A DNA stretch of 64,000 nucleotides, from positions 2,837 through 66,836 of the IMG/VR virus record IMGVR_UViG_3300021426_000092; one strand, written 5' to 3'. Source of the DNA: a virus. Taxonomy: Duplodnaviria > Caudoviricetes. Of this stretch, positions 13,779-43,198 are shown one piece after another. The stretch's first letter is position 1, and each line of letters begins with the position of its first letter. A program made the translations under genes and the position numbers. The notes below the pieces were generated by a model, which was given only the letters and a program-made list of their open reading frames with translations, was not told where the DNA came from and ran no database searches.

Positions 13779-13869
13779 TGGCGGCCGGAGTGGGATTCGA
13801 ACCCACGCACACCTCTCAGTGCCTATCGGTTTTCAGGACCGACCCCTTCATCCGCTTGGGTATCCGGCC
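13779..13869 (-). tRNA. tRNA-Ser(TGA)
   Basis: GGCCGGA/TCCGGCC acceptor stem, G discriminator, encoded CCA, anticodon arm TCGGT-CCTGAAA-ACCGA, long variable arm, GGTTCGAATCC T arm. Confidence 0.95.
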
Positions 13870-13872
13870 AAA

Positions 13873-13948
13873 TGGTCTGAGTGGGGAGGCTCGAACTCCC
13901 GGCCTCTTGCTCCCAAGGCAAGCGCTCTCCCGTCTGAGCTACACCCAG
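13873..13948 (-). tRNA. tRNA-Pro(TGG)
   Basis: CTGGGTG/CACTCAG acceptor stem, ACCA end, anticodon arm CTTGC-CTTGGGA-GCAAG. Confidence 0.95.
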
Positions 13949-13961
13949 ATACTTCATTTAT

Positions 13962-14033
13962 TGGTCGGTCATGGAGGCGGGGCTGCGCTTAACCCCAACA
14001 CACCGTCGTGTGCTTCACGCACCTCCATGACCA
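13962..14033 (-). ncRNA. 72-nt CCA-ended non-canonical structured RNA between tRNA-Leu and tRNA-Pro
   Basis: 12-bp closing helix TGGTCATGGAGG/CCTCCATGACCG plus ACCA tail; internal hairpins GCACAC-GACG-GTGTGT and GGGGTT-AAGCGC-AGCCCC. Confidence 0.6.
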
Positions 14034-14034
14034 G

Positions 14035-14119
14035 TGGTGCCCCCGGAGGGAGTTGAACCCTCAATCCTTACGGCAGCGGAACTTAAATCCGATGTGTATT
14101 CCAATTCCACCACGAGGGC
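14035..14119 (-). tRNA. tRNA-Leu(TAA)
   Basis: GCCCTCG/CGGGGGC acceptor stem, ACCA end, anticodon loop TTTAAGT, long variable arm. Confidence 0.93.
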
Positions 14120-14204
14120 TGGTGCTTCCGGCGAGATTTGAACTCGCATGCTTTTCAGCGACGGTACTTGAGGCCGTTGCGTCTACCAATTCCGCCACGG
14201 AAGC
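14120..14204 (-). tRNA. tRNA-Leu(CAA)
   Basis: GCTTCCG/CGGAAGC acceptor stem, ACCA end, D arm GGCGGAATTGGTAGACGC, anticodon loop CTCAAGT. Confidence 0.93.
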
Positions 14205-14205
14205 G

Positions 14206-14305
14206 TGGTCGAGGATGCTTTTCTTTAACCCGCTCCCCGCAGCAGGCTGTACTCAGGGTCAAGCTCCCCACCGAAAGAAGGATGAAAAACGAGCTTCCGG
14301 CCTCG
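14206..14305 (-). ncRNA. 100-nt ACCA-ended putative structured RNA within the tRNA cluster
   Basis: CGAGG/CCTCG closing stem plus ACCA; internal AAGCTC/GAGCTT and GACCC/GGGTT stems. Confidence 0.4.
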
Positions 14306-14368
14306 TGGTTTATCGCGTTGCGCACCGCCACATAAACCAAGTGTTTCCCCTATGACTACTCATAGGGC

Positions 14369-14444
14369 TGGTGGTCCGCCGGGGTCTCGAACCCCGAACC
14401 TTCCGGTTATGAGCCGGCGGCTCTACCAATTGAGCTAACGGACC
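14369..14444 (-). tRNA. tRNA(CAT), most likely Ile2 (lysidine type) rather than Met
   Basis: GGTCCGT/GCGGACC acceptor stem, ACCA end, anticodon arm CCGG-CTCATAA-CCGG. G1-C72 and CTCATAACCG resemble Firmicute Ile2 tRNAs. Confidence 0.85.
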
Positions 14445-28724: not shown

Positions 28725-28753
28725 ATTCTATATTACCAGTCGGTAATTGTCAA
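28725..28753 (-). promoter_or_regulatory. Lytic (cro) promoter with operator between -35 and -10
   Basis: Minus strand TTGACA-attaccgactggtaata(17)-TAGAAT; operator ATTACCAGTCGGTAAT at 28732-28747. Confidence 0.85.
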
Positions 28754-28842
28754 TAGGATTATTGCAGTTTTTCAAAATTTGTTGCTATTATTTCTTAAAT
28801 GCTGTAAAATTTATAAAGATAATCGAGAACGGAGGAATTCAA

Positions 28843-29235
28843 ATGCCTATCATCGATAATGCTGAACTTTTCGGTACTCTGAGGGATCGCCTCATTTTCT
28901 TAATGAAAGACCGTGGCCTCTGGGACGGCAAGCGCCCAAATCTGATTCCGTTGGCAGAGGGCCTGAACGTATCTACTGCCGCACTCAGCCGCTATCTTAG
29001 CGGGCACCGGAACCCCGATCCTGCTTACATTGCCTCACTCGCAAGCTACTTCAATGTTTCGACTGACTGGCTACTTGGGCTTACCGACGATTCAAAGCGG
29101 CACACTTTGGATGACTCCCCCAAGATGCCGGAGCTTCCGGAAGATGAGACCGAACGTATTACCGCTCTCTATGCCAAGGCATCAGAAAAAGATCGGCAAA
29201 TAATCAACGTCATTCTTTCCAAGTACAAAGGCTGA
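28843..29235 (+). CDS. CI-like XRE repressor
   Basis: LAEGLNVSTAALSRYLSGHRNP...LASYFNVSTDWLLG; divergent from cro. Confidence 0.85.
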   Translation: MPIIDNAELFGTLRDRLIFLMKDRGLWDGKRPNLIPLAEGLNVSTAALSRYLSGHRNPDPAYIASLASYFNVSTDWLLGLTDDSKRHTLDDSPKMPELPEDETERITALYAKASEKDRQIINVILSKYKG

Positions 29236-29251
29236 CAGGAAGGATGATTTC

Positions 29252-30475
29252 ATGATTTATCAGGAGCGAGACAAGCGTATTGCTGTTCTGCGTCATGCAG
29301 ATAAATCCACAGAAGAACTAAAGCGTCTCCCTTATATGTCCAAGACCTACAACGAAGCATGGCTTCAGGAGTTGATAGACGATTATCCAAGCGTTCTCCC
29401 GATGCATCAGTTCGGAGACGACTATTCGAACCTGATTTCTTTGGGCCGTGAGATCGAAGTCTATGACGGACAGCATTACGGATATATTGATAATCTCCTT
29501 ATCTCCCCTTCCGGTCATGTTGTTATCGTAGAGACTAAACTTTTTCGGAATCAGGAGTCCCGTCGCACCGTTGTCGCGCAGATCCTCGACTATGCCAAAG
29601 AGGTCCGAAAATGGGACGCAGAAAAGCTTGACGAGGCAATTGCGGACTACACCCATGCCAAGTACGGCCAATCCTATCGGATGATCGACCTGATGTGCGC
29701 AGCAGGTTATCTGACCTTCAGCGACGAGGCAACATTCACGGACAACGTAAACCGCAATCTGTCCAACGCATCGTTCCTTCTTGCTATCGTAGGCGATGGC
29801 ATAAGCAGCGGTGTAGCGAGCATCGCAGATTTCCTGAACCAGAATGCTCCGTCGCGGGTAAATCTGGCTCTGATCCAATTGGATCTCTACGAGCTGAACG
29901 GCGATGTGATAGTCATACCAAATACGCTGACGAGAACATCAGTCATTGAGCGCTTTGTCACTACAGTGTCCAATGCTCCCGTCAGAATACCGTCGGATCT
30001 GTCTGTGAAAGCAGATGTAGACAAGCCGATTCTGAGCCGTACTGAATTTATCCGCCGGTTTGCAGAACTTGGAGGCTATTCGGCAGATGCCATAACTGAA
30101 TTCATAGGTGACGCCGAAATGATCGACGGGATCTTCGTGAACATTGCGCCTACCGAGCTTCATCTGCGTTGTGCGATTGATAATTCAACAGTCGCCTTAA
30201 TCATCTTCGCCATTCCAGAGTACAAGCATGCCGATCTGTACATACGTCCAGATCGTTTCAGAAAGAAGCTCGAAGTCAGCGGCAGGCTGCCGGCAGACAT
30301 GAATGATTTCCTTGATTTCTTCAAGCCCTACTGCGATCTTCAGCGATGCAAAGCAGCTCCATACGAATTCGGTGAGAACCGTTTCTACTACGCTAACGTC
30401 TCCAAAGTCATAGAGGACAAGCAAAAATTCATTAAGGCGTTCGAAGATCTTGTTGCCAAAATCAGAGAGACATGA
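29252..30475 (+). CDS. PD-(D/E)XK nuclease-domain protein (NucS/restriction-endonuclease-like), co-oriented with the repressor
   Basis: EAWLQELI...GREI...IDNLL...VIVETKL..NQESRRTVVAQILDYA motif series. Confidence 0.75.
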   Translation: MIYQERDKRIAVLRHADKSTEELKRLPYMSKTYNEAWLQELIDDYPSVLPMHQFGDDYSNLISLGREIEVYDGQHYGYIDNLLISPSGHVVIVETKLFRNQESRRTVVAQILDYAKEVRKWDAEKLDEAIADYTHAKYGQSYRMIDLMCAAGYLTFSDEATFTDNVNRNLSNASFLLAIVGDGISSGVASIADFLNQNAPSRVNLALIQLDLYELNGDVIVIPNTLTRTSVIERFVTTVSNAPVRIPSDLSVKADVDKPILSRTEFIRRFAELGGYSADAITEFIGDAEMIDGIFVNIAPTELHLRCAIDNSTVALIIFAIPEYKHADLYIRPDRFRKKLEVSGRLPADMNDFLDFFKPYCDLQRCKAAPYEFGENRFYYANVSKVIEDKQKFIKAFEDLVAKIRET

Positions 30476-41030: not shown

Positions 41031-41525
41031 TCATGCGCTTCCCTCCTTTTGCATGATTCTTTTCGACTCCTCTGAGTACAATGCGATTTCCAGCGGATTC
41101 TTTCTGCGGTTACTCAGCATACTCAGCTCGACTCTGGCCCCAGCCACCGCCGCTTGAAGGATTGCCATCCGGTCAGCCGTTCTGTGATACTCCTGTGCTC
41201 CAAGCACGGTCATATCTTTTACCGGAGCATAGCGGAGCATTTTCGCGCCGCTGTCGATCTTTCTGGCTCCGCTCATCACGCATTTTACCGACTGGCCCGT
41301 ATATTCATCGGGATAGATGATCCGATAGCCAACGCCTCTCACGTTTTCAATCATCTTCCCGCTCTCGATCAGTTTCTTCTGCACACTCGAAACAAGGCTT
41401 CGGTACTGTGTGCTTCCTTCTCTTTCGCCGAGGATAAAGGCGATTTCCTCATGGGAAAGCGTTTTCCCGTATCCACGCCCCATGATTTCGTCATAGAGCT
41501 TCTTGATTTTATCTTGTCTGTTCAT
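41031..41525 (-). CDS. Array-coupled accessory protein with N-terminal winged-HTH-like segment
   Basis: ATG at 41525 preceded by GGAGG; ends a predicted HTH with IENVRGVGYRI (wing hairpin), followed by a helical C-terminus. Confidence 0.65.
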   Translation of the reverse strand: MNRQDKIKKLYDEIMGRGYGKTLSHEEIAFILGEREGSTQYRSLVSSVQKKLIESGKMIENVRGVGYRIIYPDEYTGQSVKCVMSGARKIDSGAKMLRYAPVKDMTVLGAQEYHRTADRMAILQAAVAGARVELSMLSNRRKNPLEIALYSEESKRIMQKEGSA

Positions 41526-41535
41526 ATTTACCTCC

Positions 41536-41844
41536 TTGCCGTACCCTGCCGTACCTAACACAGCCCCAACTAACCATGCCACATAATCCTTGCCCTGCCT
41601 GACCTTACCCTACCGTACCGTGCCGGGCCCAATAATCCTTGCCTTGCCAGACCAAACCTTGCCATACCTAACCCGGCCTTATAATCCTTACCTTTCCCGA
41701 CCTAACCATGCCAGGTCGAACCGAACCCTGCCGTATAATCCCGACCGCACCATGCCTAACCGTGCCCCACCATACCATGCCGCATAATCCTTACCAAACC
41801 TTGCCTCGCCGGGCCTTGCCATGCCATGCCTTTCCGTATAATCC
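41536..41844 (-). repeat. GGY-NN pentamer array: six units headed by GGATTAT (54, 49, 54, 49, 49, 54 nt); candidate guide-RNA array
   Basis: Direct reading: GGATTAT starts at 41844, 41790, 41741, 41687, 41638 and 41589, each followed by NN and 8-9 (GGC/GGT)-NN repeats. Confidence 0.92.
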
Positions 41845-41847
41845 GCG

Positions 41848-42429
41848 TCAGGCAACTTCCTCGATTTTCACGTTGAACCGGCCATAGCCCATCGTCCTCA
41901 TTTCGCAGAGTCCGACGTAAGCTCCCGCATTTTCAAAGGCAATAACGATCGCCCCGATGTCGATCTTGTCTTCCTCGTAAAGCATATCGAAATTGCAGCT
42001 CCAGGTATTGAAACGGGGGCGAGTCCTGATGACTCTCGCCATCTTAACCACGACGCTGCGTACATCGCGGAAGCGAGGATCTGTCTTCATCTTGTCATAG
42101 TCCTGCACCTCGCCGATGTCCAGAGGGGCCATAGGATCGACGATGTGGCAGTAGCGAGCCGCCGCTGCGCCGTTCTTGTTGAACTTGGCGCCTTCTTTCA
42201 GAGTCGCCGCCAAACATTCGTTCGGGATGTTGAGGCCGATAGAGTCGTCCCAGTACACGCCGGATTCCCATTCGAGATCTGAAATGGCGATCAGATCGTC
42301 CTCCGTCTTCTTTCGCTTGCTTGTGTAGCCTTTCAGCTTGATAGCGATGGGATGGAGCGGATTTACGCACTTGGGAGAGTGCATAACCAGCGGGGACGTA
42401 CCGTACAGGGTGATGTTGAGCTTCTTCAT
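41848..42429 (-). CDS. Stand-alone RAMP/Cas7-like RRM protein (Vipr-like) immediately upstream of the GGY-NN array
   Basis: ITLYGTSPLVMH (RAMP beta1-SPL), IPNECLAATLK (cf. IPGSSLKG) and terminal Gly-rich loop VGLCEMRTMGYGRF. Stop codon is 3 nt from the first array unit. Confidence 0.8.
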   Translation of the reverse strand: MKKLNITLYGTSPLVMHSPKCVNPLHPIAIKLKGYTSKRKKTEDDLIAISDLEWESGVYWDDSIGLNIPNECLAATLKEGAKFNKNGAAAARYCHIVDPMAPLDIGEVQDYDKMKTDPRFRDVRSVVVKMARVIRTRPRFNTWSCNFDMLYEEDKIDIGAIVIAFENAGAYVGLCEMRTMGYGRFNVKIEEVA

Positions 42430-43170: not shown

Positions 43171-43198
43171 ATCTTACATTACCGACTGGTAATGTCAA
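43171..43198 (-). promoter_or_regulatory. Operator-containing promoter upstream of the RAMP-array unit
   Basis: Minus strand TTGACA-N16-TAAGAT with CATTACC-AGTC-GGTAATG (43177-43194) between the hexamers. Confidence 0.8.

What the first reader, a model, noticed from the sequence alone, without database searches (positions are those of the whole stretch)
41536..42429. Stand-alone RAMP/Cas7-like gene plus GGY-NN repeat array: candidate non-CRISPR RNA-guided system in a phage
Seen: the 193-aa ORF 41848-42429 has RAMP-like hallmarks (SPLVMH after beta1, IPNECLAATLK, terminal Gly-rich loop GLCEMRTMGYGRF). Its stop codon sits 3 nt before a 309-nt array of six units, each GGATTAT + NN + 8-9 x (GGY + NN). 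No other cas genes or CRISPR repeats are recognisable in the window. Established: RAMP/Cas7 proteins polymerise along guide RNAs with a fixed nucleotide periodicity. Inference: one protomer binds each invariant GGY while the variable NN are displayed for base pairing, GGATTAT marks processing sites that release six ~50-nt guides, and without a nuclease the output would be binding or transcriptional silencing, e.g. of competing phages. From memory, this matches the recently reported VIPR (Viral Interference Programmable Repeat) architecture; I could not verify that here, so novelty needs a literature check.
Basis: partly seen in the sequence, partly recalled or inferred. Interest (0 to 1): 0.97.

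Follow-up and report, generated by a model that had tools for sequence, protein, structure and literature searches.

The report
Phage VIPR guide-RNA system, compact array

Summary
A 193-aa gene (41848-42429, minus strand) ends 3 nt before a 309-nt array (41844-41536). The array has six units of 54/49/54/49/49/54 nt, each GGATTAT + NN + 8-9 GGYNN pentamers. 46 of 51 pentamers are perfect GGY, and these are the only long runs in the 64-kb window.

The protein matches the solved SUSP1 Vipr protein over its full length (PDB 36pp, E 6e-28). Its predicted fold is Cas7/Csm3-like. The 164-aa gene after the array belongs to the same PHROG as the vap1 partner of SUSP1-type loci and has a winged-helix N-terminus. 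No cas genes or CRISPR repeats are present.

This is therefore a member of the published VIPR family (bioRxiv 10.64898/2026.04.26.720920 and .720927). This scan has found VIPR before on other DNA.

Three things differ from the characterised type II loci:
- The array lies between vipr and vap.
- The guides have no structured 3' tail.
- Every unit boundary shifts the pentamer register by -1. This holds in most related loci and fits the "staggered arrays" the paper mentions but did not test.

I found no convincing natural target. Guide processing and the identity of the targets remain inferred.

The parts
41848..42429 (-). vipr: 193-aa stand-alone RAMP (Cas7-like) protein
   Evidence: PDB 36pp_D 'SUSP1 Vipr protein', E 6.2e-28, residues 1-189 of each. 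phrog_4652, E 3e-46, the same PHROG as the Alf5 Vipr. AF2 pLDDT 90.6. Foldseek top hits are Csm3/Cas7, E 2e-5. RNA- and DNA-contact residues H17, K33, E71, R137 and R178 are conserved.
41536..41844 (-). vrRNA array: six head-to-tail guide units, no structured tails
   Evidence: RNA fold is no better than shuffles (z -1.28). No Rfam family or hammerhead. Gene callers call no gene here in the same phage from other samples.
41791..41844 (-). unit 1 (54 nt); NN string AC AA AT AT AA CC GA AA TT AA
41742..41790 (-). unit 2 (49 nt); NN string GC AT AT GG AC TA AT GC CG
41688..41741 (-). unit 3 (54 nt; one degenerate pentamer, GACCT); NN string AC AG TC TC CT AT TA CG AA AA
41639..41687 (-). unit 4 (49 nt); NN string AA CG TA AT AA TT CT AA AA
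41590..41638 (-). unit 5 (49 nt); NN string TG CC AC AC AG AA CA AG AA
41536..41589 (-). unit 6 (54 nt; degenerate pentamers GTTGG and TGTTA); NN string GT AT TA GG TG TA AC AG AC AA
41531..41535 (-). GGAGG ribosome-binding site of vap, directly after the last pentamer and in pentamer register
   Evidence: Sequence. The in-register RBS is not conserved in relatives.
41031..41525 (-). vap1-like accessory gene: 164 aa, N-terminal winged helix plus long helices
   Evidence: phrog_5926 (E 1.4e-6), the PHROG that holds the gene next to vipr in Alf5, LESphi2, MakoManhole, Medea1 and LittleE. Weak Pfam Trans_reg_C hit. AF2 pLDDT 85.8. Foldseek gives GntR and OmpR-type DNA-binding domains. Homologues (44-60% identity) follow the array in 9 related loci.
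43171..43198 (-). candidate sigma70-type promoter of the minus-strand operon that contains the locus (weak evidence)
   Evidence: TTGACA-16-TAAGAT, 10 of 12 matches. No terminator-like site on the minus strand between 44000 and 40500. Consensus match only.

Best explanation
The locus is a complete VIPR (Viral Interference Programmable Repeat) system of a probably temperate phage (inferred from a cI-type HTH repressor gene) known only from metagenomes. It has three parts: vipr (41848-42429), a six-guide vrRNA array (41844-41536) and a vap1-like winged-helix gene (41031-41525). All lie on the minus strand and are probably co-transcribed.

By homology with the solved SUSP1 system, Vipr protomers polymerise along each run of GGYNN pentamers. 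Each GGY is held by two neighbouring protomers, and the NN dinucleotides are presented for pairing. The 8-10 NN pairs of a guide read double-stranded DNA in a gapped code (NN, skip one base, NN, and so on). The bound filament represses transcription of a competing mobile element. Vap probably enhances this through DNA binding.

What is particular here is the punctuation. Instead of a ~40-nt structured 3' tail, neighbouring guides are separated only by GGATTAT. This puts 7 nt rather than 3 nt between two GG pairs and shifts the pentamer register by -1.

I infer that this break ends one Vipr filament and starts the next. I also infer that the exposed AU-rich stretch is where a host RNase cuts, giving 49- and 54-nt guides.

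Shown here: family membership, fold, array grammar, and clade-wide conservation of the architecture. Taken from print: filament formation, the gapped code and silencing. Inferred: co-transcription, the processing site, the role of Vap and the targets.
For: Protein: full-length match to PDB 36pp 'SUSP1 Vipr protein', E 6.2e-28. Same PHROG (4652) as the Felixounavirus Vipr. 33-38% identity to five type II-like phage Viprs, which are 34-52% identical to one another.

SUSP1 residues that contact G1, G2, Y3 and the target backbone (paper 720927) are kept as H17, R137, R178, E71 and K33. D177 becomes E176 and W178 becomes M177.

Fold: pLDDT 90.6, best PDB matches Csm3 and type VII Cas7, probability 1.00.

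Array: 46 of 51 pentamers are perfect GGY with variable NN. It is on the same strand as vipr and is unique in the window.

Relatives: the type II-like phages Alf5, LESphi2 and LittleE carry clear GGYNN arrays on the vipr strand. MakoManhole has one 7-pentamer run and Medea1 only short runs. About ten distinct metagenomic loci at 62-77% identity carry vipr-array-vap in the same order, apart from two truncated loci, one of which (L014) has no array after it.

Register: a phase-tracking model finds a -1 shift at all 5 boundaries in the window and at nearly all boundaries in 9 related loci. Unit lengths are 5n+4.

Accessory gene: phrog_5926 as in SUSP1-type vap, with a winged-helix fold.

Context: viral record, 74% complete, with RecT, a DnaC-like loader, YopX and an HTH_3 repressor. 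No cas genes or CRISPR repeats.

No self-target: the best NN match in the window is 75-78%, the same under all four skip rules. The paper reports the same for its systems.
Against: No natural target was identified for any of the six guides, so function in this phage is not shown.

The aromatic residue that stacks on G2 in SUSP1 (W178) is Met throughout this clade. RNA recognition may therefore differ in detail.

There is no 3' tail or pseudoknot, which caps the filament in SUSP1. No ribozyme was found. The way single guides are made is therefore unknown, and the array could act unprocessed.

No promoter or terminator specific to the array was found.

The VIPR type cannot be assigned, because the paper's type figures and tables are not held.
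Confidence: 0.92

Rival explanations
1. It is a VIPR system, but the array is not cut into six guides. It acts as one ~310-nt RNA carrying six Vipr filaments, or as one filament that tolerates the 9-nt steps. GGATTAT is then only a spacer.
For: No ribozyme, hairpin or tail at the boundaries. No nuclease in the locus. The paper did not confirm staggered arrays by RNA sequencing.
Against: The separator is conserved in sequence (GG[A/T]TT.T) and in its -1 register effect across loci whose guides differ completely. This suggests a recognised signal. The paper's legend for staggered arrays speaks of individual processed vrRNAs.
Confidence: 0.15
2. The Cas7-like protein and its guides target RNA, as type III CRISPR Csm3 filaments do, rather than double-stranded DNA.
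For: The closest solved folds outside VIPR are the Csm3 subunits of RNA-targeting type III-A complexes.
Against: The sequence relative with a solved structure binds dsDNA by a gapped code, in vitro and in vivo. The target-backbone contact K33 is conserved. No Cas10 or other type III gene is present.
Confidence: 0.04
3. The array is a decaying or inactive remnant, or a DNA-level element such as Vap binding sites or G-quadruplex-forming DNA, with no guide function.
For: Five of 51 pentamers are degenerate. No target was found.
Against: GG is almost invariant while NN is near maximal entropy. The array is identical in independent samples. Intact vipr and vap flank it. Relatives keep the grammar with entirely different NN strings. 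That is the pattern expected for a working, diversifying guide array.
Confidence: 0.03

Closest known systems
Type II VIPR of Escherichia phage SUSP1 (Felixounavirus) and the Pseudomonas fulva prophage (bioRxiv 10.64898/2026.04.26.720920, 10.64898/2026.04.26.720927, 10.64898/2026.10.15.759431; PDB 36pp)
   Same: Homologous Vipr (E 6e-28, same length, same PHROG). Homologous vap (phrog_5926, winged helix). GGY/NN pentamer guides on the vipr strand. Phage-borne, with no cas genes. The GGY- and DNA-contact residues are mostly kept.
   Different: The order here is vipr-array-vap, whereas SUSP1-type loci have vipr and vap abutting or overlapping with guides upstream and downstream. Guides here are 49-54 nt with 8-10 NN and no tail. 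SUSP1 guides are ~100 nt with a ~40-nt tail and pseudoknot, and each has its own leader. W178 is Met and D177 is Glu. Vipr identity is only 33%.
'Staggered vrRNA arrays' described in the VIPR discovery preprint (fig. S18; legend read)
   Same: Head-to-tail guides in which the end of one marks the start of the next, with a 1-nt overlap. Here unit lengths are 5n+4, which equals 5(n+1)-1, so each boundary shifts the register by -1.
   Different: I could not see the figure or the loci it shows, so identity of the architecture is inferred from the legend. The preprint says only the ribozyme-interspersed and single-guide architectures were confirmed by RNA sequencing.
Class 1 CRISPR Cas7 backbone (Csm3 of type III-A, Cas7 of type VII)
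   Same: RRM-based RAMP fold with a thumb and a glycine-rich loop. One protomer per fixed number of guide nucleotides.
   Different: No sequence-level match to any Cas family model. 5-nt rather than 6-nt periodicity. No Cas5, Cas6, Cas10 or large subunit. No CRISPR repeats and no adaptation genes.

Membership tests
VIPR system | Vipr protein homologous to the reference Vipr proteins | tested here: met
   PDB 36pp_D SUSP1 Vipr, E 6.2e-28, 1-189 of 193. phrog_4652, E 3e-46.
VIPR system | Minimal RAMP fold (single RRM, thumb, glycine-rich loop) | tested here: met
   AF2 pLDDT 90.6. Foldseek best hits are Csm3/Cas7, E 2e-5, probability 1.00, TM 0.45-0.56. C-terminal loop GLCEMRTMGYGRF aligns to the SUSP1 G-loop.
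VIPR system | Residues that hold GGY and the target backbone in SUSP1 Vipr | tested here: met
   H17, K33, E71, R138 (R137 here) and R179 (R178 here) are kept. D177 is E and W178 is M, clade-wide. M72 is C. Five of the eight residues I could verify are identical, one change is conservative, and one loses the aromatic ring.
VIPR system | Adjacent tandem YNNGG/GGYNN repeats (4 or more) on the vipr strand, GGY conserved and NN hypervariable | tested here: met
   51 pentamers, 46 perfect. Entropy 0.14/0.28/1.2/1.63/1.94 bits. Unique in the window. NN strings differ between relatives while the grammar is kept.
VIPR system | Accessory vap gene in the locus | tested here: met
   164-aa ORF in phrog_5926, like the vap of five type II-like phages. 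Winged-helix N-terminus.
VIPR system | Not associated with CRISPR arrays or cas genes; mostly viral or proviral | tested here: met
   No Cas model, PADLOC model or CRISPR repeat family hit. Viral record with phage replication genes.
VIPR system | vrRNAs are expressed and co-purify with Vipr | not testable with these tools
   Needs small-RNA sequencing and pull-down.
VIPR system | Guides match natural targets by the 1-nt skip rule (80% or more of NN) | tested here: inconclusive
   No convincing hit in the window, fetched loci, five related phage records, IMG/VR (all six guides, exact), JGI metagenomes (guide 2, exact) or 401 genomes of one order (guide 6). The collection scans were exact-match only, so imperfect targets would be missed.
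VIPR type II (SUSP1 / P. fulva architecture) | Each vrRNA ends in a conserved structured 3' tail (~40 nt, pseudoknot in the SUSP1 clade) | tested here: not met
   Units abut with only GGATTAT between them. Array fold z-score is -1.28. No Rfam hit.
VIPR type II (SUSP1 / P. fulva architecture) | vipr and vap adjacent, guides in the flanking intergenic regions | tested here: not met
   Here and in 9 relatives the array lies between vipr and vap. In Alf5, LESphi2, MakoManhole, Medea1 and LittleE the two genes abut or overlap.
CRISPR-Cas class 1 (Cas7/Csm3) | Cas7 family sequence signature, partner cas genes and a CRISPR repeat-spacer array | tested here: not met
   No NCBIfam, Pfam or PADLOC Cas hit. 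No CRISPR repeat. The similarity is in fold only.

The most novel reading that the evidence does not exclude
In this abundant gut/rumen phage clade (environment inferred, not checked), VIPR guides are delimited by a 4-nt register break alone, not by a structured tail or ribozyme. Two GG pairs sit 7 nt apart instead of 3 nt, at GG-AUUA-U-NN. Vipr filaments themselves would then measure and end each guide, and a host RNase would trim the exposed AU-rich gap.

From memory, GG|AUU fits the RN|WUU preference reported for RNase E. I did not check this here.

That would be a protein-ruler mode of guide maturation with no dedicated processing element. In this phage the last repeat also abuts the vap ribosome-binding site, so array coating could tune vap translation as well.
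Probability: 0.3. Interest if true: 0.5.

Novelty: new member of a known kind. Interest (0 to 1): 0.3.

Why it matters
VIPR was described only in 2026, and experiments so far cover two closely related type II systems from Proteobacteria phages. This locus belongs to a large metagenomic clade: the homology search returned more than 1000 protein clusters at E <= 1e-5, the top 120 being 62-77% identical.

They would also show how guide boundaries can be set without a handle. For cataloguing the system itself, the finding adds an example rather than a new kind.

Tried and rejected
Target prediction with the published 1-nt skip rule gave nothing convincing.
1. Window with the array masked: best matches were 13-15 of 18-20 NN letters, no better than under 0-, 2- or 3-nt skip rules.
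2. All fetched loci (173 kb): background only.
3. Exact full-length patterns in IMG/VR:
   - Guide 5: one hit, in a GC-rich sequence stretch and not clearly coding.
   - Guides 2, 3 and 6: none.
   - Guide 1: three hits in non-homologous proteins from contigs of 26-60% GC.
   - Guide 4 (AT-rich): 21 scattered hits.
4. Guide 2 in JGI metagenomes: 7 hits, which are 5 unrelated sequences.
5. Guides 2, 3, 5 and 6 with up to 3 mismatches in five complete related phage records: none.
6. Guide 6 with up to 2 mismatches in 401 genomes of the order of the Oscillibacter MAG: 0 hits against 7 for the reversed control.

All of this is at chance level.

Reading guide 1 as codons (T-K/N-I/M-I/M-K/N-P-D/E-...) gave no shared protein family.

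Host assignment failed. The genome collection holds only two relatives, in a 'Prevotella' MAG contig and an 'Oscillibacter' MAG. Relatives cannot be drawn for a virus record. The GGAGG ribosome-binding sites and the YopX gene suggest a Firmicute, but this is inference.

I rejected a hammerhead-interspersed array, since there is no Rfam hit.

The 183-aa GTG-start reading of vap (41031-41582) and the small ORFs inside the array (41590-41787 +, 41688-41855 -, 41708-41887 +) are by-products of the repeat. Gene callers do not call them.

I did not run a complex prediction, because the report makes no claim that Vipr and Vap bind each other.

Full report
**What is there**

All features lie on the minus strand of the window. 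A 193-aa ORF (41848-42429) ends with TGA. Three bases later a 309-nt stretch begins (41844 down to 41536), and it parses completely into six units. Each unit is GGATTAT, two variable bases, then eight or nine pentamers of the form GGYNN. Unit lengths are 54, 49, 54, 49, 49 and 54 nt.

Of the 51 pentamers, 46 are perfect GGY. Positional entropy rises from 0.14 and 0.28 bits at the two G positions to 1.63 and 1.94 bits at the NN positions.

Runs of three or more GGYNN occur nowhere else on either strand of the 64-kb window. A sliding count of GG at 5-nt spacing reaches 6-9 only here.

Directly after the last pentamer come GGAGG, five bases and the ATG (41525) of a 164-aa ORF (41031-41525).

The same protein with the identical array is present in two independent assemblies.

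**What the protein is**

Pfam, NCBIfam and PADLOC give nothing. PHROGs places the protein in phrog_4652, of unknown function.

Against the sequences of solved structures, it matches 'SUSP1 Vipr protein' (PDB 36pp) at E 6.2e-28 over residues 1-189 of both proteins.

An AlphaFold model built on 31 relatives has mean pLDDT 90.6. Its best Foldseek matches in the PDB are Csm3 subunits of type III-A complexes and Cas7 of type VII. These score E about 2e-5, probability 1.00 and TM 0.45-0.56.

The cryo-EM preprint names the SUSP1 residues that hold the guide and the target. In an alignment with the near-identical Alf5 protein these map as follows:

| SUSP1 residue | Role | Here |
|---|---|---|
| H17 | G1 | kept |
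| R138 | G2 | kept (R137) |
| R179 | Y3 | kept (R178) |
| E71 | Y3 pocket | kept |
| K33 | target backbone | kept |
| D177 | G1 | Glu |
| W178 | stacks on G2 | Met, in 30 of 31 clade members |
| M72 | Y3 pocket | Cys |

**What the neighbour is**

The 164-aa ORF falls in phrog_5926 (E 1.4e-6). The gene that follows vipr in Alf5, LESphi2, MakoManhole, Medea1 and LittleE falls in the same PHROG, at E 7e-76 to 3e-12.

Its model (pLDDT 85.8) has an N-terminal helix-strand-helix-helix-hairpin domain followed by long helices. Foldseek's matches are all weak (E 6e-3 or worse) but consistent. They are GntR-type regulators and OmpR/PhoB-type DNA-binding domains. The OmpR-type matches superpose at rmsd 3-4 A over about 70 columns.

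This agrees with the weak Pfam Trans_reg_C hit and with the preprint's description of type II vap as a winged-helix-like DNA binder.

**The literature**

VIPR is described in four preprints held in the library:
- The discovery paper (10.64898/2026.04.26.720920).
- A structural paper (10.64898/2026.04.26.720927).
- A paper on phage-satellite competition (10.64898/2026.10.15.759431).
- A language-model survey that recovers 99 clusters of 5-nt-periodic arrays (10.64898/2026.10.21.760802).

They report the following:
- Vipr is a minimal RAMP found mostly in phages and prophages.
- vrRNAs consist of 9-16 YNNGG repeats followed by a tail.
- One Vipr protomer binds per repeat, and two neighbouring protomers hold each GGY.
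- The NN bases pair with double-stranded DNA while every third target base is skipped.
- The outcome is transcriptional silencing of competing mobile elements.
- vap1 enhances protection.

Seven types are defined. Besides the type II architecture, the discovery paper mentions 'staggered arrays with overlapping vrRNAs', ribozyme-interspersed arrays and single-guide systems. Only the last two were confirmed by RNA sequencing.

**Relatives**

Type II-like phages carry GGYNN runs on the vipr strand, upstream and/or downstream of an abutting or overlapping vipr-vap pair. The arrays are clear in Alf5, LESphi2 and LittleE, shorter in MakoManhole, and only short runs in Medea1. In Alf5 and LESphi2, whose flanks I read, each guide has a leader and a hairpin-containing tail.

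The window's protein is 33-38% identical to these proteins. They are 34-52% identical to one another.

Much closer relatives are abundant in metagenomes. The search returned 1076 clusters at E <= 1e-5. The top 120 are 62-77% identical and unnamed, except one labelled 'hypothetical protein' and one labelled as a Caudoviricetes MAG protein.

I read about ten distinct loci at 62-77% identity. The order is vipr, array, vap in all of them except two truncated loci, one of which (L014) has no array after it. One locus (L036) also has a ~550-nt array upstream.

**The register shift**

A small hidden-state model that tracks the phase of the GGY pentamers shows the same feature in the window and in nine related loci. 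After 8-17 in-phase pentamers comes a pentamer such as GGATT, GGTTT, GGAAT or GGGTT. Four bases follow (xT + NN), and then the next run starts, one position out of the previous register.

All five boundaries in the window shift by -1, as do nearly all boundaries in the relatives. The exceptions lie in visibly degenerate stretches of L020 and L036.

Unit lengths are therefore 5n+4. This equals whole pentamer runs overlapping by one base. That is how the legend of fig. S18 of the discovery paper describes staggered arrays. I could not see the figure, so this equivalence is an inference.

The separator is present on both sides of most arrays, so it cannot be assigned to the 5' or 3' end of a guide.

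The array RNA has no predicted structure beyond shuffled controls (z -1.28). It contains no Rfam family.

**How it most likely works**

Shown here:
- The locus has the protein, the guide grammar and the accessory gene of a VIPR system.
- The architecture is conserved in a large clade.

Taken from the preprints for the homologous SUSP1 system:
- Vipr filament formation on GGYNN.
- Gapped reading of dsDNA.
- Repression of transcription.

Inferred:
- The three parts are co-transcribed from an upstream minus-strand promoter. A consensus match lies at 43198-43171, and no minus-strand terminator-like site lies between 44000 and 40500.
- The 9-nt step GG-ATTA-T-NN-GG interrupts protomer-to-protomer contacts, so each unit carries its own filament of 9-11 protomers.
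- A host RNase cuts the exposed AU-rich gap.
- From memory, GG|AUU fits the RN|WUU preference reported for RNase E. I did not check this, and the host is unknown.

**Targets**

I applied the published rule (replace each GGY by one wildcard). I found no self-target and no convincing target in the related phages, IMG/VR, one JGI metagenome scan or 401 genomes of one Clostridia-type order. The few exact hits are unrelated to each other and match chance expectation.

The large collections could be scanned only for exact matches. The authors accepted 80% NN identity, so imperfect targets would have been missed.

**Context**

The window is 64,000 of the 66,836 bases of an IMG/VR virus record judged 74% complete. 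It encodes RecT, a DnaC-like loader, nucleotide-sugar enzymes, YopX, a cI-type HTH_3 protein and five tRNAs. This fits a temperate phage. GGAGG ribosome-binding sites and YopX point to a Firmicute host, but this is inference. The genome collection gave only two MAG hits of different phyla.

**Verdict**

This is a new member of a known kind. It belongs to a clade whose compact, tail-less, register-shifted arrays and vipr-array-vap order differ from the characterised type II loci. These arrays probably correspond to the 'staggered' class, which is untested. This scan has already reported VIPR loci on other DNA.

Noticed in passing
L028:2480-2590 (IMGVR_UViG_3300022686_000079): A distant Vipr relative (27% identity over residues 53-187) is followed by about 17 in-phase pentamers of the form GGA-NN (GGATA GGATA GGAGT GGATG GGAAT ...). 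A purine sits where the published scaffold has a pyrimidine.
   Followed up: no
L005:2063-2452 (Mycobacterium phage LittleE, gene 35): The annotated hypothetical gene 35 lies on the strand opposite to vipr and overlaps two GGYNN guide runs of 12 and 10 pentamers (2175-2234, 2320-2369). It is probably a mis-called ORF over vrRNA genes.
   Followed up: no
window 29252-30475 (+), next to 28747-29235 (+): The 407-aa gene just downstream of the HTH_3 repressor-like gene matches the PADLOC candidate defence family PDC-S11 (E 1e-11). It has no Pfam or PHROG hit.
   Followed up: partly
L007, L008 and L013 arrays (IMG/VR sample 3300031760): One whole guide unit (GGATTCT GA GTATT GGTAA GTCGC GTTTA GGTAG TGTTT ...) is shared almost letter for letter by three related phages whose other units differ. 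This suggests cassette-like exchange or retention of single guides.
   Followed up: no
L009:3590-3630, L010:3590-3650, L020:2590-2625, L036:2095-2125: In several relatives a strong GC-rich hairpin sits between the vipr stop codon and the first separator of the array. The window has none (TGA CGC GGATTAT). It may be an attenuator or a processing site.
   Followed up: no
L036:850-1400 and 2130-2190: This relative (73% identity) has a long, partly degenerate array (~550 nt) upstream of vipr, plus a single 11-pentamer guide between vipr and vap.
   Followed up: no
window 41526-41540: The vap ribosome-binding site GGAGG occupies the position and register of the next pentamer after the last guide. 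Relatives place the RBS further downstream, so this is particular to this phage.
   Followed up: partly
window 13782-14444 (-): A cluster of five tRNA genes, found by Rfam at gathering threshold.
   Followed up: no
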